Assembly (NCBI GenBank): GCA_035465395.1
Contig: DATHRK010000102.1
Location: 191 to 64,190, forward strand
Direction of reading: 5' to 3'
Length of the DNA: 64,000 nucleotides
Source: Longimicrobiales bacterium
GTDB taxonomy: Bacteria > Gemmatimonadota > Gemmatimonadetes > Longimicrobiales > RSA9
Shown here: piece after piece, positions 16,589 through 22,378 of the stretch
Layout of the letters: every line of letters starts with the position of its first letter
How positions within the stretch are numbered: position 1 is the first letter of the stretch
Notes under the pieces: model-generated
Database searches by the model: none
What the model saw: only the letters and a program-made list of their open reading frames with translations
Told to the model about the DNA's origin: nothing
Program-made: the position numbers and the translations under genes

Positions 16589-17794
16589 CTAGAAAAACTC
16601 CCTGATCCACGTCACCACCCGCCCCCACGCGCCGCCATCGGCCGCCGACCCGGTGTCCGCCGCGTGCAAGGCCAGGCCGACACCGGTCGCGAACTTCGGT
16701 CGCCGCACGGAGTCCGCGAGGCCCGTCAGGCGCCCTCCCGGCGAGCCAACGCGCACCGGCATGCCGAAGGCGTGCTGGGCGACCTCCACGGTCCCATCCA
16801 GCGTGGCGCCGCCCCCCGTCAGCACGACGCCGGCGCCCAGCGTCTCCCCCTCGTCGACGACGATCTGCTCGGCGACCAGCCCGAGGATCTCGTCCAGGCG
16901 CTGCTCGACGATGTGCGCGATCAGCTCCCGCGAGACGCTTCGCTTCCCCTCCGGCCCCGGGCCCGGCAGCTCGACCGACTCCCTCGGATCCACGAGCTGC
17001 GCGAACGCGACCCCGTGCTGGCGCTTGGCGCGTTCGGCCTCGTGGAACGGCAGCGCGAGGCCCTTCACCAGGTCCGCGGTGACCACCCCGCCGCCCAGCG
17101 GCACCGTGGCCAGCCGCTGGATGCGCCCGTCCCGGTAGACCGCTACCTCGGTGGTCCCGCCGCCGAGATCCACCAGCGCCACGCCGATCTCGCGCTCGTC
17201 TTCGGTGAGGACCGCGCGCGCGGCGGCGATCGGCTCGTGCACGAGCGCTTCGACCGCGTAGCCCGCGCGCGAGACCGCCTTGCGCAGGTTCTGGCAAGCC
17301 GCCGCCTCGGCGGTGATCAGGTAGACCTCCGTCTCGAGGCGCGTTCCTACCATGCCGCGCGGGTCGCGAATGCCCCCCTGGTGATCGACGATGTACTCCT
17401 GCGGCAGCGCGTGGAGGAGCTCCCGGTCGCCCGGCACGACCACGGCACGCGCGACCTCCTGGACCCGCTCCACGTCGGAGTCCACGATTTCTTCTCCGCC
17501 CACCGCCACGATCCCCGCGGAGGAGTTGGCGTCGATGTGCTGCCCGGCGATGCCGACGTGCAGCCGCTCGACCTCGGCCCCGGCCATCAACTCGGCCTCC
17601 TTGAGCGCGCCGCGGACCGACTCCGTCGTCTCCTCCAGGTCGGTCAAGACCTCCCTCCGCACGCCCGCGCTGCCGACCTCGCCGACGCCCAGGACCTTGA
17701 GCGTAGCCTCGCCCCCTTCGAGGACGACCTCGGCGATCACCGCGCACGTCTTCGTAGAGCCGATGTCGAGTCCCGCGACCAGCCGCGTCGTCAT
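16589..17794 (-). CDS. ftsA: cell division protein FtsA
   Basis: In-frame ATG at 17794 ([23 protein letters not shown]) within ORF 16589..18700. Actin-fold motifs ([21 protein letters not shown]). ATGA overlap with ftsQ. Confidence 0.9.
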
Positions 17795-18540
17795 CGCGCC
17801 TCCCCCCTTCGTCCACCGAGGGCCAGTACCACCTGTCCGCTGTAGCGGGCATCCAGCCGGGCGGTCGGCAGAGCGTCGGGACCGCGCTCGAGCTCGGCCA
17901 GGACCACCTCGATGCGCCGCAGCTGCTCGGGTGCGGCCTCCGCCTGGACGAGCACCGACAGGTCCGCGGGCCGCCGCAGCCGCAGCCGCAGTGTGCCGGC
18001 ATCGGCGCGCACCTCCGATACGCGGCCGGCCAGGCCCGGATCGAGGCGGCGGAGTCGATCCCAGTCCGAGACCGCCGCCAGCAGCGCAGGGTCCGCGAGG
18101 CGGCCGTCCGGCAGGACGGCGGCGCCGTGCAGGACGGGCAGGTCCAGCGAACCGTGTCCGGGGGGGATCGGCAGCGCCCGCCCGCTGCCGTCGACCGGCA
18201 CCAGGCGCGGCGTGCGTACGAGCAGCACCGGCTCCGTCTCCTCGATCTCCAGGACTAGCGTCGCCGGCAGCTTGCGCCGGATCTCCACGCCGGCCACGAG
18301 CGGATGCACGAGCAGCGCTTCCCGCCACCGCTCGCGGTCTTCGAAGAGGTTTGCGCCCGCCCGAATCCCCGCGGTCGCCAGCGCGTGGTGCGGCGGCAGG
18401 TTGCGGTGGCCGCGCACCTCCACGTGACGCACCTCGAACGCCGGCACCCGGCGCAGCACGCGAGGCGCCTCGGCCACGCCGGCCGCGACCAGCGCCGCAC
18501 CCGCCGCCACCGCTAGTCCGGTCCCGAGGCCGATCTTCAC
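17791..18540 (-). CDS. ftsQ: cell division protein FtsQ (POTRA domain)
   Basis: N-terminal TM, then FEVRHVEVRGHRNLP POTRA-like segment. Position between murC and ftsA. GTG start overlaps the murC stop (GTGA). Confidence 0.8.
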   Translation of the reverse strand: MKIGLGTGLAVAAGAALVAAGVAEAPRVLRRVPAFEVRHVEVRGHRNLPPHHALATAGIRAGANLFEDRERWREALLVHPLVAGVEIRRKLPATLVLEIEETEPVLLVRTPRLVPVDGSGRALPIPPGHGSLDLPVLHGAAVLPDGRLADPALLAAVSDWDRLRRLDPGLAGRVSEVRADAGTLRLRLRRPADLSVLVQAEAAPEQLRRIEVVLAELERGPDALPTARLDARYSGQVVLALGGRRGEAR

Positions 18541-21107
18541 GCGACCTCCTCGCCGAGCTTGGCGAACAGCGCGGACGCCACCTCGTCGATGTTGCCCGCC
18601 CCCATGACCAGCATGACGTCGCCGGCGCGTGCGGCGCCGCGCAGCGCCACGGGCAGGGTCGCCAGATCGGGGTGGTAGACGACGTGGGCCCCGGCTTCAC
18701 GCGCGGCGTCGGCGACCAGCTCTCCGGTCACCCCGGCGATGGGCTCCTCCCGTGCCGGATAGACGTCGGTGACCCACACCGCGTCCGCGGCGGCCAGAGT
18801 CGAGCCCATGGCGGGCGCGAAGTCGCGGGTGCGCGTGAAGAGGTGCGGCTGGAACACCGCGACGATGCGCCGACCCGGGTGCGCGGCGCGCGCCGCGGCG
18901 AGCGTCGCCGCCAGCTCCGTGTGGTGGTGCGCGTAGTCGTCGACCACCTTCACGCCGGCGCGCTCCCCCAGCACGTCGAAGCGACGCGCGACCCCCGTGA
19001 ACCGTCCGAGGCCCGCGACCGCGGAGGCGAAGTCCGCGCCCAGGTGCCGCGCGGCGGCGAAGGCGGCGAGCGCGTTCCGCACGTTGTGCTCCCCCGGCGC
19101 GCCGAGCCGCACGGTGCCGAGCGGTGCGTCTCCGTCGACCACCGTGAAGGTCGAGCCCTCGGCGTCCGAGCGGACATCGGTGGCGCGCAGATCGGCGGCA
19201 GCGCCGGTGCCGTACGTCACGACCGGCGCACCGGCGTGGCGAGCCGCCAGACGCGCCGCGCCGGGGTCGTCCGCGCACGCGATCAGCAGGCCGTCGGCGG
19301 GCAGCGCCGCGACGTAGGTGTCGAAGGCGTCCTCGACGGCTTCCAGCGAGCCGTAGACGTCGAGGTGGTCGGCCTCGAGGTTGGTGACGATCGCGACGGT
19401 CGGGCGGAGCGCGTGGAACGAGCGATCGTACTCGTCGGCCTCGACGACGAAGAGGTCCCCTTCCCCGAGGCGCAGCCCACCGCCCCAGGCGTCGATCCGG
19501 CCGCCGACCATCGCCGTCGGATCCAGCCCGGCGGCGTCGAGGATCGCCGCCGTCATCGCCGTCGTCGTGGTCTTGCCGTGTGTCCCGGCCACGCCGACGA
19601 CGGTCCCGCGGTTCACCAGCGCGCCCAGCGCGCGGGCGCGCTTCATGACCGGGATTCCGCGCGCGCGGGCACGCGCCAGCTCCGGGTGGTCCGCGGGCAC
19701 GGCCGCGGTCGTGACGACGGCGACCGCGTCCTCCACGTGCGCGGGGTCGTGCCCCTGCTCCACGCGAGCGCCGCGGTCCCGCAGCGCCTTGCCGATCGCG
19801 CCCGGCCGCAGGTCGCATCCCGAGACGGCGCCGCCGCTGCGCAGGATCAGCTCGGCGAGGACCGACATGCCCGCGCCGGCCACGCCCACCAGGTGCACCG
19901 GGCCGGTGCGGGCGAGCGCGACGAGATCCACCTCGTTCTCCGGGTCGCCGCCCCGGTGGACGTGCCCGGCGCCGGCGCCCGCCCGGTCGGCCAGCGCCAG
20001 GACGTCGGCCGCGATGGACTCGGCGGCCTGGGGCCGGGCGCGCGACCGCGCACTCTCGGCGATGCGGGCCCGAGCCGCCGGGTCGGCCGCCAGCTCCATG
20101 AGAGCCCGCCAGAGCCGTTCGGGCGTGGCCTCCGCCTGCTCGAGCACCTGCGCGGCGCCCGCCGCGGCGAGCGCCTCGGCGTTGACGCGCTGGTGGTCCG
20201 CGGCGGCGGTGGGGAGCGGGATCAGGATCGACGGAACCCCCCAGGCCAAGAGCTCGCCCGTAGTGCTCGCCCCGGCGCGTGACACCGCGAGGTCCGCCGC
20301 CGTTAGGGCCGCTGGCATGTCGTTCAGGTAGCCCTCCAGGCGGACCCACTCCGGCGAGCCCGCGGCCGCGAGCTCGTCCCGGACCGCCTCCAGGTGGTCG
20401 GGCCCGGTGACCCACAGCAGGACGAGGTCGGCGGGCGGCGCGGGCAGGTCTCCGCGGGCCACAGCGGCGATCGCGCCGGACAGCGACCGGTTGATCGCGA
20501 GCGCTCCCTGGCTGCCCCCGGTCACGAGCGCCACCGTGGCGTCGGCGGGCAGCCCGAGCCGTGCGCGCGCGCGTGCGCGGTCATCGTCGGCATCCGGTGT
20601 CCGCACCGGCGTACCGCTCTCGAGGACTTCGGTCCCCGGGCCGGGCTTGAGGTGCGCCGCGGCTTCGGGGAACCCGAGGTGGATCTGCCGGGCGCGCGGC
20701 GCCATCCAGCGCGTCACCAGCCCGGGGTAGGCGTTCTGCTCCTGCAGCACGATCGGCACGCCCCGCAGGTGCGCGACCAGCGCGGCCGGCCCGCTCGCGT
20801 AGCCGCCCGTCCCCACGAACACGTGCGGACGGAAGCGCGCGCACAGGCTGCGCACCGCCAGCAGGCTGCGGACCAGCGCCGGGACCAGCCGCCAGTTGCG
20901 CCAGGGCCGGTCGCGGCGCAGCGGCTCGATCGGCAGGAGCGTGTGCGGCACGCCGCGCTCCGGAAGCACGCGCGCCTCGATGCCGCGCCGGGCGCCCACG
21001 AAGTGCGATTCCAGGTCGGCGCGCAGCGCCCGCATGGCCGCCTCGATCGCGAGCGCCGGGTACAGGTGCCCGCCCGTGCCGCCGCCGGCGAAGAGGACGC
21101 GCGTCAT
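18537..21107 (-). CDS. murG/murC: fused MurG (lipid II GlcNAc transferase) - MurC (UDP-MurNAc--L-Ala ligase) reading frame, 856 codons
   Basis: One frame with no stop. MTRVLFAGGGTGGHLYPALA and GGSQGA (MurG), then VHLVGVAGAGMSVLAELIL, GTHGKTTTTAM and DDYAHHHTE (MurC). ATG 21107 overlaps the ftsW stop (ATGA). A possible internal murC start is the GTG at 19931, after GGAGA. Confidence 0.85.
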   Translation of the reverse strand: MTRVLFAGGGTGGHLYPALAIEAAMRALRADLESHFVGARRGIEARVLPERGVPHTLLPIEPLRRDRPWRNWRLVPALVRSLLAVRSLCARFRPHVFVGTGGYASGPAALVAHLRGVPIVLQEQNAYPGLVTRWMAPRARQIHLGFPEAAAHLKPGPGTEVLESGTPVRTPDADDDRARARARLGLPADATVALVTGGSQGALAINRSLSGAIAAVARGDLPAPPADLVLLWVTGPDHLEAVRDELAAAGSPEWVRLEGYLNDMPAALTAADLAVSRAGASTTGELLAWGVPSILIPLPTAAADHQRVNAEALAAAGAAQVLEQAEATPERLWRALMELAADPAARARIAESARSRARPQAAESIAADVLALADRAGAGAGHVHRGGDPENEVDLVALARTGPVHLVGVAGAGMSVLAELILRSGGAVSGCDLRPGAIGKALRDRGARVEQGHDPAHVEDAVAVVTTAAVPADHPELARARARGIPVMKRARALGALVNRGTVVGVAGTHGKTTTTAMTAAILDAAGLDPTAMVGGRIDAWGGGLRLGEGDLFVVEADEYDRSFHALRPTVAIVTNLEADHLDVYGSLEAVEDAFDTYVAALPADGLLIACADDPGAARLAARHAGAPVVTYGTGAAADLRATDVRSDAEGSTFTVVDGDAPLGTVRLGAPGEHNVRNALAAFAAARHLGADFASAVAGLGRFTGVARRFDVLGERAGVKVVDDYAHHHTELAATLAAARAAHPGRRIVAVFQPHLFTRTRDFAPAMGSTLAAADAVWVTDVYPAREEPIAGVTGELVADAAREAGAHVVYHPDLATLPVALRGAARAGDVMLVMGAGNIDEVASALFAKLGEEVA

Positions 21108-22378
21108 GCCGCCGCCCGCCTGCGGCGGTTCCGGCGCGCCGCCACCTGGCGTCGCCGCTCGGCCTGCGTGCGCCTCTCGCGGCCGCGCGCTTCCTCGTCC
21201 GCCGCGCGCGCGAGCGAGATCAGCAGCCCGGCCGCCGCGAGGCAGACGATCAAGCTCGAGCGGCCGTACGACAGGAACGGCAGCGTGAGGCCGGTCGTCG
21301 GCACGAGCGCCAGGTTGACCGCCATGTGCAGCAGCGCCTGGACGACGATGAGATTCGTCAGCCCGATCGCGAGCAACGCTTCGAACGGACCCGCGGAGCG
21401 CCGGGCGATGCGGTACCCGATGAGAGCGAACGCGACGAACGCGGCCAGGATCGCGGCGGTGCCGAGCAGCCCCCACTCCTCGCCGATCATCGCGAACAGG
21501 AAGTCGTTGTGGGGCTCGGGCAGGAAGCCGAACTTCTGCTGGCCACGCCCCACTCCCCGTCCCAGCCACCCGCCGCTGCCGACCGCGATGAGCGCCTGGT
21601 TGATCTGGTAGGCCACGCCGCCGGTGTCTCCGGCCGGATCCAGGAACGCGGCGACCCGGCCCGCGCGGTACGTCGCCCCGCTGATCTGGTGCAGCGCGAG
21701 CGGCGTCCCGACCAGCCCCAGGGCCACGAAATGGGCGGGCCGGCCGCCTGCCGCGAATACCACGAGCGAGGCGAGCATTACGAGGAGCGCCGCCGAGGAG
21801 TAGTCCGGCTGCAGGACGAGGAGCAGCGCGAGGCCGCCCCACACCAGCAGGAACGGCAGCAGCCCCCGGCTGAGGCTGCGTAGCAGCTCGCGCTTGCGCA
21901 CGGCGAGCGCCGCGGTCCACACGATCACCGCCAGCTTCGCAAACTCCACCGGCTGGATCGTGAGGGGCCCGATCGAGAGCCACCGCCGCGCGCCGTTCAC
22001 GCGGGGCGCGATGGTCTCGGTGCCGGGCAGGATCGTGATCAGCAGCAGGACCCCCGACGCCGCCAGAATGGGCCAGGCGAGCGCCCGCAGCAGCGCCGGC
22101 CGAACCTGGGCGCATATCACCAGGGCCAGCAGGCCGGCGGCGCCACCCAGCGCCTGGCGCACCACGAAATGGTAGTCGGGCAGGCCGCGAGACTGCGCCA
22201 TTACGGCGCTGGCGCTGTACACCATCACCAGCCCGAACGCGAGCAGCGCGAGCGTGAGGATCAGCAGCGCGGGGGCCTCCCAGCCGCCCGGGCCCGGCGG
22301 TTCCGGACGCTCGGTGCCGAGCGCATCCATGCCGCGGCGCAGCCGCTCGCGCGCCGCCGACAGGGGCCGCGCGCTCAC
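21104..22378 (-). CDS. ftsW: SEDS-family peptidoglycan polymerase FtsW
   Basis: About ten TM segments and SEDS motifs (PEPHNDFLFAMIGEEWG, LVPTTGLTLPFLSYG). GTG 22378 overlaps the murD stop (GTGA). An alternative ATG is at 22330. Confidence 0.85.
   Translation of the reverse strand: MSARPLSAARERLRRGMDALGTERPEPPGPGGWEAPALLILTLALLAFGLVMVYSASAVMAQSRGLPDYHFVVRQALGGAAGLLALVICAQVRPALLRALAWPILAASGVLLLITILPGTETIAPRVNGARRWLSIGPLTIQPVEFAKLAVIVWTAALAVRKRELLRSLSRGLLPFLLVWGGLALLLVLQPDYSSAALLVMLASLVVFAAGGRPAHFVALGLVGTPLALHQISGATYRAGRVAAFLDPAGDTGGVAYQINQALIAVGSGGWLGRGVGRGQQKFGFLPEPHNDFLFAMIGEEWGLLGTAAILAAFVAFALIGYRIARRSAGPFEALLAIGLTNLIVVQALLHMAVNLALVPTTGLTLPFLSYGRSSLIVCLAAAGLLISLARAADEEARGRERRTQAERRRQVAARRNRRRRAAA

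What the first reader, a model, noticed from the sequence alone, without database searches (positions are those of the whole stretch)
18537..21107. murG and murC share one uninterrupted reading frame (possible bifunctional MurG-MurC)
The MurG part (start ATG 21107) runs with no stop into a complete MurC. The junction reads ...ADVLALADRAGAGAGHVHRGGDPENEVDLVALARTGPVHLVGVAGAGMS. There is no ATG between the domains. The only plausible independent murC start is the GTG at 19931, 5 nt after GGAGA. The locus therefore predicts an 856-aa fusion, possibly plus an internally initiated MurC. Other fused Mur enzymes are known (MurC-Ddl in Chlamydia, MurB-MurC in Verrucomicrobium). I cannot say from memory whether a MurG-MurC fusion has been characterised. 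It would tether a membrane-associated lipid II step to a cytoplasmic ligase.
Basis: partly seen in the sequence, partly recalled or inferred. Interest (0 to 1): 0.6.

Follow-up and report, generated by a model that had tools for sequence, protein, structure and literature searches.

The report
MurG-MurC fusion gene in Longimicrobiales
Two cell-wall enzymes that are normally separate, the lipid II glycosyltransferase MurG and the L-alanine ligase MurC, are truly encoded here as one 856-residue protein, but this kind of fusion is already known from other bacteria, so this is a new lineage of a known oddity.

Summary
On the minus strand, 21107..18537 is one stop-free frame of 856 aa. It holds a full-length MurG (aa 1-367) and a full-length MurC (aa 404-846), joined by about 36 aa.

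It is not an assembly error. An independent assembly covers the junction without any gap. Six other contigs from different sources carry the same fusion at 74-95% identity. Their linkers vary from 17 to 50 aa and are always in frame.

On a MurC tree these fused proteins form one clade (support 100) inside unfused Longimicrobiales (Gemmatimonadota). Unfused relatives have murG and murC in different frames with overlapping stop and start. Their MurG tail plus MurC head equals the short linker, so a small indel probably made the fusion.

Both halves are under purifying selection (dN/dS about 0.07-0.08). The linker drifts.

MurG-MurC chimeras are already described, mainly in Actinobacteria (Cellulomonas gilvus; Shirakawa 2023). 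In my search, 48 of the 150 best 50%-identity cluster representatives were MurG-MurC fusions of many origins. None appears to have been characterised biochemically.

Extra MurC made from the internal GTG at 19931 is possible but unproven.

Verdict: real, ordinary in kind, and a new lineage.

The parts
18537..21107 (-). Fused murG-murC ORF, 856 codons plus the stop TGA at 18537-18539
   Evidence: The identical 856-aa protein is on record in NCBI nr, ENA and Logan on a 75,184-bp contig.
20007..21107 (-). MurG domain (aa 1-367), GT28 N and C halves. The GGTGGH, QEQN, GGSQGA, SRAGASTTGEL and DHQ motifs are present.
   Evidence: TIGR01133 at 268 bits, profile positions 5-351 of 353. Aligns end to end with the solved MurG structures 3S2U, 7D1I and 1F0K. 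AF2 pLDDT is mostly above 90.
19899..20006 (-). Junction (aa 368-403): the MurG C-terminal helix tail, a short flexible linker, and the former MurC N-terminal extension
   Evidence: Not covered by either family model. Variable in sequence and length in relatives, 17-50 aa between LALAD and VDL. dN/dS is about 0.9 against L003, based on only 18 codons.
19941..19967 (-). Predicted disordered core of the linker (aa 381-389, GHVHRGGDP)
   Evidence: The only segment with pLDDT below 50 in the AF2 model. Mean pLDDT is 94.2 but pTM is 0.64, which suggests the relative position of the two domains is not fixed.
18540..19898 (-). MurC domain (aa 404-856): Mur_ligase N, M and C domains, with the P-loop GTHGKTTT, EADEYDRSF and DDYAHHH
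   Evidence: TIGR01082 at 469 bits, profile positions 2-447 of 449. Aligns with E. coli MurC 2F00 residues 16-475 at E=1e-94.
19929..19931 (-). In-frame GTG (Val393), a candidate internal start for a stand-alone MurC
   Evidence: The only start-like codon in the junction. It is GTG in five of the six fused loci examined as DNA (the window, L003, L004, L005, L008) and CTG in L001.
19937..19941 (-). GGAGA, a Shine-Dalgarno-like motif 5 nt upstream of GTG 19931
   Evidence: GGAG/GAGG lies 4-10 nt upstream of 6 of 9 real dcw starts, against about 10% of random in-frame start-like codons.
21104..21107 (-). ATGA overlap of the ftsW stop and the murG start (translational coupling)
   Evidence: ftsW ORF ends at 21104, murG ATG at 21107. 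The same 4-nt overlap occurs in L001, L003 and L004.
18537..18540 (-). GTGA overlap of the murC stop and the ftsQ start
   Evidence: ftsQ-like ORF 17791..18540 starts with GTG. The same 4-nt overlap between the fusion and ftsQ occurs in L001 and L003-L005.

Best explanation
This is a genuine gene fusion in the dcw cluster of a Longimicrobiales (Gemmatimonadota) bacterium. murG and murC have merged into one cistron that is translated as a bifunctional protein of about 90 kDa.

The N-terminal half is a complete GT28 glycosyltransferase (lipid I + UDP-GlcNAc -> lipid II). The C-terminal half is a complete UDP-MurNAc:L-alanine ligase. They are joined by the MurG C-terminal helix, about 10 disordered residues, and the former MurC N-terminal extension.

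The fusion most likely arose once in the ancestor of a small clade. A 1- or 2-nt indel at the overlapping murG-stop/murC-start (ATGA or TGATG in unfused relatives) removed the stop and aligned the two frames. Some descendants later expanded the linker to 44-50 aa.

The expected consequences are inferred, not shown. MurG and MurC would be made in an obligatory 1:1 ratio. The soluble ligase would be tethered to the membrane-associated MurG, and so to the site of lipid II synthesis. Substrate channelling is not expected, because the two reactions are not consecutive.
For: Shown:
- One stop-free frame with both full-length domains.
- No gap or stop in an independent assembly across the junction.
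- The same architecture and synteny (murE-murF-mraY-murD-ftsW-murG::murC-ftsQ-ftsA-ftsZ) in L001, L003, L004, L005 and L008, and in further cluster members from NCBI, JGI, ENA and Logan.
- At least 5 linker length changes, all in frame.
- The fused proteins form one clade with support 100, nested in unfused Longimicrobiales MurC.
- In unfused relatives L006 and L007, murG and murC overlap by 1 or 4 nt in different frames. Their MurG tail plus MurC head is 18-19 aa, equal to the 17-18 aa short linker.
- dN/dS is 0.068 for MurG and 0.081 for MurC against L003, and about 0.2 for deeper pairs, so both halves are constrained.
- Catalytic motifs of both enzymes are kept.
- The AF2 model has pLDDT 94 with only aa 381-389 disordered, and pTM 0.64.
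- No second murG or murC lies in the 64-kb window.

From the literature: Mur enzymes and MurG are reported to interact and co-localise, and chimeras are read as support for a Mur complex (PMC6420597, PMC10214165).
Against: - There are no protein-level data, so translation as a single polypeptide is inferred from the absence of a stop.
- An SD-like GGAG plus GTG inside the junction could also yield free MurC.
- Proteolytic processing of the linker cannot be excluded.
- The rest of the genome could not be searched for stand-alone murG or murC copies, because the genome tools were shut.
- The functional benefit (stoichiometry, tethering) is conjecture. The fusion could be a nearly neutral accident, kept only because breaking it would abolish MurC translation.
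Confidence: 0.82

Rival explanations
1. Two products from one ORF. Besides the fusion protein, ribosomes start at GTG 19931 (Val393), helped by the GGAGA 5 nt upstream, and make a free MurC of about 464 aa. The cell would then have more MurC than MurG. This does not exclude the fusion protein.
For: GGAG lies at spacing 6. Motifs of this kind precede 6 of 9 real dcw starts in this window, against about 10% of random in-frame start-like codons. GTG plus GGAG is kept in L003, L004 and L008. A product starting at aa 393 would contain the whole TIGR01082 match, aa 404-846.
Against: In fused relative L001 the codon is CTG. In L005 the GAGG is only 2 nt upstream. The four positive loci are just two sister pairs. 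The Val/Leu is a conserved residue about 16 aa inside unfused MurC, so the GTG is explained by protein coding alone, and the GGAG comes from Glu codons. Strict in-frame maintenance of the linker upstream of this codon, through at least 5 indels, fits better with MurC translation depending on read-through from murG.
Confidence: 0.25
2. Assembly or sequencing artefact. A missed base or collapsed indel in a very GC-rich metagenomic contig falsely joins two separate genes.
For: GC is 75-80%, so false long ORFs are frequent. Some metagenomic 'fusions' in the hit list (P0041, P0048) have tails that look frameshifted.
Against: An independent Logan contig covers the junction with 0 gaps. Identical 151-nt pieces occur in runs filed under other studies. 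Fused ORFs occur in at least 6 divergent contigs from four sources, with different linker lengths. Both flanking domains are in the same frame in every one.
Confidence: 0.02
3. The polypeptide is made as a fusion but is cleaved in the disordered linker, giving separate MurG and MurC. The fusion would then only enforce equimolar synthesis.
For: The linker is disordered, low-complexity and poorly conserved, which would make it accessible to proteases.
Against: There is no conserved cleavage motif and the linker sequence drifts freely. The characterised MurB/C chimera showed no cleavage in a cell-extract assay, and B. pertussis MurE-MurF was purified and crystallised as a single bifunctional chain (PMC4803751, PMC10214165, PMC6420597). 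Nothing here tests the idea directly.
Confidence: 0.08
4. One half is a decaying passenger, and a stand-alone murG or murC elsewhere in the genome does the real work.
For: The rest of the genome could not be searched.
Against: Both halves score above the curated equivalog cut-offs. Both keep their catalytic motifs. Both have dN/dS of 0.07-0.25. There is no paralogue in the window, and the fusion sits at the canonical dcw position.
Confidence: 0.03

Closest known systems
Actinobacterial MurG-MurC chimeras (e.g. Cellulomonas gilvus; PMC4929429 Fig. 3; PMC10214165: 9% of UniProt Mur chimeras, concentrated in Actinobacteria)
   Same: Same domain order (MurG N-terminal, MurC C-terminal), same dcw position, and a variable linker. 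Cellulomonas examples P0054, P0063, P0064 and P0067 were recovered in my search.
   Different: Independent origin. On the MurC tree the Cellulomonas-type fusions sit inside Actinobacteria, while the window's clade sits inside Longimicrobiales. Identity to the actinobacterial fusions is 41-43% overall. The host here is a Gemmatimonadota lineage, presumably diderm (outer-membrane genes were noted only in an unchecked first-stage note), not a monoderm. The linker is short (17-18 aa between LALAD and VDL) and equals the ancestral tail plus head.
Other metagenomic MurG-MurC fusions (48 of the 150 best 50%-identity representatives)
   Same: Same two-domain architecture and order. Several were seen on many contigs, e.g. 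P0088 and P0096.
   Different: 30-44% identical to the query and spread over the MurC tree. The tree needs at least 12 changes of the fused/unfused state. One large fused group lies next to a Chitinophagales (Bacteroidota) MurC. The window's clade is one separate 50% cluster, represented by P0003.
MurE-MurF chimera of Bordetella pertussis (PDB 8F5D; PMC10214165, PMC6420597)
   Same: A fusion of two neighbouring dcw genes into one bifunctional polypeptide, read as evidence for a cytoplasmic Mur complex.
   Different: MurE and MurF catalyse consecutive steps and are locked head-to-tail by a hydrophobic patch with no linker. MurG and MurC are not consecutive, and here they are joined by a flexible tether.
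MurC-Ddl (Chlamydia trachomatis) and MurB/C (Verrucomicrobium spinosum; PMC4803751)
   Same: MurC fused to another peptidoglycan enzyme. The fusion is clade-specific and monophyletic.
   Different: The partner and orientation differ: in MurC-Ddl, MurC is N-terminal (NF011171 matches only aa 403-847 here). Those fusions have been tested biochemically, whereas I found no such test for any MurG-MurC.

Membership tests
MurG (UDP-GlcNAc:lipid I GlcNAc transferase, GT28; TIGR01133) | Full-length match above the curated equivalog cut-off | tested here: met
   268.2 bits against a cut-off of 250.25, aa 1-367 on profile positions 5-351 of 353. Pfam PF03033 and PF04101 both match.
MurG (UDP-GlcNAc:lipid I GlcNAc transferase, GT28; TIGR01133) | Conserved G-loops and donor-binding motifs (GGTGGH, GGSxGA, the E of the S/TxxE helix, the HQ/QQ motif) | tested here: met
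   GGTGGH 9-14, GGSQGA, SRAGASTTGEL and ADHQ align with the corresponding motifs of 3S2U and 1F0K. HEQN reads QEQN, which is the consensus across the 146-row alignment of MurG/MurC homologues, mostly Gemmatimonadota.
MurG (UDP-GlcNAc:lipid I GlcNAc transferase, GT28; TIGR01133) | Glycosyltransferase activity on lipid I | not testable with these tools
   Needs an enzyme assay or complementation of a murG(Ts) laboratory strain.
[quoted passage not shown] | Full-length match above the curated equivalog cut-off, with all three Mur ligase domains | tested here: met
   468.7 bits against a cut-off of 335.1, aa 404-846 on profile positions 2-447 of 449. PF01225, PF08245 and PF02875 all match. E=1e-94 to E. 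coli MurC 2F00.
[quoted passage not shown] | ATP-binding P-loop and conserved Mur ligase residues | tested here: met
   G508, H510, G511, K512 and T515 (within GTHGKTTT), D558 and E559, D580 and H581, and R708 and R709 are invariant across 68 homologues, including the window's protein.
[quoted passage not shown] | L-alanine-adding ligase activity | not testable with these tools
   Needs an assay or complementation of a murC(Ts) laboratory strain.
MurG-MurC chimera class (as catalogued in PMC10214165 and PMC4929429) | Single ORF with MurG N-terminal and MurC C-terminal, and no stop between them | tested here: met
   The junction is confirmed in an independent assembly.
MurG-MurC chimera class (as catalogued in PMC10214165 and PMC4929429) | Common descent with the actinobacterial chimeras | tested here: not met
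   On the MurC trees the window's clade (support 100) lies inside unfused Longimicrobiales, apart from the Cellulomonas-type clade. It shares the architecture but arose independently.
MurG-MurC chimera class (as catalogued in PMC10214165 and PMC4929429) | Expressed and active as one polypeptide | not testable with these tools
   No proteomic or biochemical data exist for this clade, and none was found in the literature searched for any MurG-MurC chimera.

The most novel reading that the evidence does not exclude
In this presumably diderm lineage, MurC is made only as a tail on membrane-bound MurG. The first committed amino-acid ligation of peptidoglycan synthesis would then take place at the membrane or divisome. 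The repeated in-frame linker expansions (17 to 50 aa) would tune the reach of the ligase within a physical Mur complex. This would be a natural, analysable case for the long-debated Mur 'metabolon'.
Probability: 0.2. Interest if true: 0.45.

Novelty: new member of a known kind. Interest (0 to 1): 0.22.

Why it matters
Natural Mur chimeras are used as evidence that the cytoplasmic peptidoglycan enzymes work as a complex scaffolded by MurG. That idea bears on why Mur inhibitors perform poorly in cells.

This locus adds an independently evolved MurG-MurC fusion in a poorly studied phylum with few cultured members. Its origin is easy to read: an indel at an overlapping stop/start. Its closest relatives are unfused, and there is a natural series of linker lengths.

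That makes it a convenient comparative set, but it does not change what is known. The architecture is already catalogued and turns out to be common in metagenomes.

Tried and rejected
- Sequencing or assembly error: rejected. See the independent contigs and the conserved fusion.
- Chance open frame in GC-rich DNA: considered, because the frame is also open 1 kb upstream of murG. Rejected as the whole explanation, because 79 of 80 related loci have a murG stop and the fused clade keeps the frame through at least 5 indels.
- Common origin with the Cellulomonas fusions: rejected by the trees.
- Internal promoter or terminator between the halves: none found.
- Second murG or murC copy: none in the window. 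The whole-genome search could not be run because the tools were shut.
- Supplement of PMC10214165, to see whether Gemmatimonadota were among its chimeras: not held. The main text does not mention the phylum.
- Names for the other metagenomic fusion clusters: mostly unnamed, one Micrococcales.
- P0041 and P0048 have tails that look frameshifted. P0048 was left out of both trees and P0041 dropped out of them. Neither is among the 48 fused representatives, though the total of 86 fused proteins was not checked for them.
Full report
**Observation**

On the minus strand one frame is open from 22115 to 18537. Starting at ATG 21107, which overlaps the ftsW stop as ATGA, it gives 856 aa (P0001).

Pfam finds both GT28 halves (aa 4-142 and 193-356) and the three Mur-ligase domains (aa 404-838). 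NCBIfam gives murG TIGR01133 at 268 bits (cut-off 250) over aa 1-367, and murC TIGR01082 at 469 bits (cut-off 335) over aa 404-846. Both matches are essentially full profile length. Two complete enzymes therefore share one frame, separated by about 36 residues that neither model covers.

The only in-frame ATG/GTG/TTG in the junction is GTG 19931-19929 (Val393), with GGAGA 5 nt upstream. The next one, Met414, lies inside the MurC nucleotide-binding loop.

**Is it more than chance or error?**

The region is 75-80% G+C. Long open frames are therefore cheap: the same frame stays open 1 kb upstream of murG, and many overlapping ORFs of more than 300 aa exist on both strands. The open frame alone proves little. 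Three other lines of evidence settle it.

- *Independent assembly.* A Logan assembly of a soil metagenome holds a 7,425-bp contig (depth 13.4) that covers 19500-20500 with one substitution (T>C at 20304) and no gap. Runs filed under two other studies (X3 and X4, which gave identical tables and may be one data set filed twice) hold an identical 151-nt piece covering 19929-20079.
- *Conservation.* A database search found fused proteins of the same architecture at 92, 71, 67, 65 and 64% identity over the junction region (P0002 to P0006). That is 74-95% identity overall. A further one lies in a GTDB representative genome, L008, a Longimicrobiales MAG. Cluster look-ups show these sequences on several contigs from JGI, ENA, NCBI and Logan. 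The window's own 856-aa protein is itself on record in NCBI nr.
- *Contrast with relatives.* Of 80 loci fetched from species-representative genomes, only L008 is fused. The other 79 have a stop after murG. These are mostly Gemmatimonadales, plus three other Longimicrobiales and a few loci from other phyla.

**Anatomy and origin**

All fused loci share the order murE-murF-mraY-murD-ftsW-murG::murC-ftsQ-ftsA-ftsZ, with overlapping stops and starts.

In the closest unfused relatives, murG and murC overlap by 1 nt (TGATG, L006) or 4 nt (ATGA, L007) and lie in different frames. In those genomes MurG ends ...LLELVGRN* or ...LALVAG*, and MurC begins with a variable extension of 15-17 aa before (V/L)DL..LAR(T/S)G. 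Tail plus head is 18-19 aa.

In the window, 18 aa lie between LALAD and VDL. P0002 and P0003 have 17. The short linker is thus simply the old MurG tail joined to the old MurC head. A 1-nt insertion or 2-nt deletion at the overlap would suffice to remove the stop and align the frames. This step is inferred.

Other members have 44-50 aa here (P0004 49, L008 44, P0005 47, P0006 50). That is at least five length changes, all in frame.

**Phylogeny**

On a MurC-domain tree, the six fused Gemmatimonadota proteins form one clade with support 100. P0005 is an N-terminally incomplete protein that lacks most of the MurG half, so the script labelled it 'unfused'. The clade is nested among unfused Longimicrobiales sequences. 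The Cellulomonas-type fusions form a separate clade inside Actinobacteria.

A larger tree with named genomes places the window's clade beside L050, L006 and L007 (Longimicrobiales), away from Gemmatimonadales. The fusion is therefore a single, fairly recent event in one Longimicrobiales sublineage.

**Are both halves functional?**

Between the window and L003, dN/dS is 0.068 for MurG and 0.081 for MurC. Deeper pairs give about 0.2. The linker gives about 0.9, though from only 18 codons.

The MurG motifs GGTGGH, GGSQGA, SRAGASTTGEL and DHQ align with those of the solved MurG structures. The MurC P-loop and other invariant Mur-ligase residues are present.

AlphaFold2, run on a 146-row alignment, gives mean pLDDT 94.2. 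Only aa 381-389 fall below 50. The MurG C-terminal helix runs to about aa 382, and MurC begins with a short helix at 395-399 and its first strand at 403. pTM is only 0.64, as expected if the two bodies have no fixed mutual orientation.

No solved structure contains both domains. No second murG or murC lies in the window. The whole-genome tools were shut, so paralogues elsewhere could not be excluded.

**How it most likely works**

*Shown.* There is one cistron with no stop, no internal promoter-like or terminator-like site, two intact constrained domains, and a flexible, drifting linker whose length changes are always in frame.

*Inferred.* Ribosomes that start at the murG ATG, coupled to ftsW termination, read through into MurC and give a bifunctional protein of about 90 kDa. 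This fixes a 1:1 MurG:MurC ratio. It also tethers the soluble ligase to the membrane-associated glycosyltransferase. Because MurC acts early in the cytoplasmic pathway and MurG catalyses the last cytoplasmic-face step, direct channelling is not expected. The published reading of such non-consecutive chimeras is stabilisation of a multi-enzyme Mur complex and co-regulation of enzyme levels (PMC6420597, PMC10214165).

The fusion may also be a nearly neutral accident. Once fixed, it could not be undone without losing MurC translation.

**Internal initiation**

In this window, 6 of 9 real dcw starts have GGAG or GAGG 4-10 nt upstream, against about 10% of random in-frame start-like codons. GTG 19931 has GGAG at spacing 6. 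The motif plus GTG is kept in L003, L004 and L008.

Against this, those four loci are only two sister pairs. L005 has GAGG at a spacing of 2 nt, and L001 has CTG at this codon. The residue is a conserved Val/Leu about 16 aa inside unfused MurC, and the GGAG comes from Glu codons. I rate additional free MurC as possible, at about 0.25, and not required.

**Comparison with what is known**

MurG-MurC fusions were first noted in Cellulomonas gilvus (PMC4929429) and mentioned again in PMC6420597. PMC10214165 counts them as 9% of UniProt Mur chimeras and describes them as concentrated in Actinobacteria. That paper's main text does not mention Gemmatimonadota, and its supplement is not held.

I found no biochemical or structural study of any MurG-MurC chimera in the library and no PDB entry.

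In a full scan of 1.84 billion 50%-identity representatives, 48 of the 150 best hits are MurG-then-MurC fusions at 30-44% identity. Several recur on many contigs. They are scattered on the MurC tree, which needs at least 12 changes of state. One sizeable fused group sits next to a Chitinophagales MurC. The architecture is thus recurrent and not confined to monoderms.

**Verdict**

It is a new lineage-specific instance of an already catalogued kind of Mur chimera. Its modest value lies in the cleanly readable origin and the natural series of linker lengths. Interest is low to moderate.

**Limits**

- No expression or proteomic data were available.
- No whole-genome search could be run.
- The public runs found were kept as Logan contigs, so no raw reads were examined. 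The best holder may be the sample the window was assembled from, so it is not fully independent support.
- dS is partly saturated for the deep pairs.
- The large tree was built with FastTree only.

Noticed in passing
window 16589-18540; L001, L003-L007: murC (or the fusion) is followed directly by ftsQ and ftsA. murB and ddl do not lie between them, in either the fused or the unfused Longimicrobiales relatives. This agrees with a first-stage note on the same genome.
   Followed up: partly
L009-L049 and others: In roughly fifty of the fetched loci, mostly Gemmatimonadales, murG and murC lie in the same frame, separated only by a stop codon and a short spacer. One substitution could fuse them. 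In the Longimicrobiales relatives nearest the fused clade they overlap in different frames.
   Followed up: partly
window 21108-22115 (minus strand): The murG frame stays open for about 1 kb upstream of its ATG, overlapping ftsW in another frame, which gives a spurious 1192-aa ORF. Several other ORFs of more than 300 aa overlap the locus on both strands, an effect of 75-80% G+C.
   Followed up: yes
P0041 (741 aa), P0048 (1303 aa): These two metagenomic 'fusions' (MurG-MurC and FtsW-MurG-MurC-like) have long Arg/Pro/Ala-rich stretches that look like out-of-frame translation. They are probably frameshifted contigs or gene-call artefacts, a caution for counting chimeras in GC-rich metagenomes.
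   Followed up: no
P0088, P0093, P0095-P0097, P0100, P0103, P0105, P0106, P0108, P0115, P0124, P0125, P0128, P0141, P0180: A large, diverse group of MurG-MurC fusion representatives clusters next to a Chitinophagales (Bacteroidota) MurC (L058, itself unfused). This suggests the fusion is common in a diderm lineage, whereas PMC10214165 describes the type as concentrated in Actinobacteria.
   Followed up: partly
window aa 121-125 of the fusion (about 20733-20747): The MurG motif that reads HEQN in E. coli and P. aeruginosa reads QEQN here. QEQNAYPG is also the consensus of the 146-row alignment of homologues, mostly Gemmatimonadota.
   Followed up: no
window 19500-20500: Near-identical sequence turns up in soil, sediment, freshwater, marsh and mangrove metagenomes from several studies, so the organism or close kin is widespread.
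   Followed up: no
P0081 (1127 aa), same 90% cluster as P0006: A longer member of a fused cluster on a 5.9-kb contig. It could be a miscalled upstream start in GC-rich DNA or a further extension. I did not examine it.
   Followed up: no
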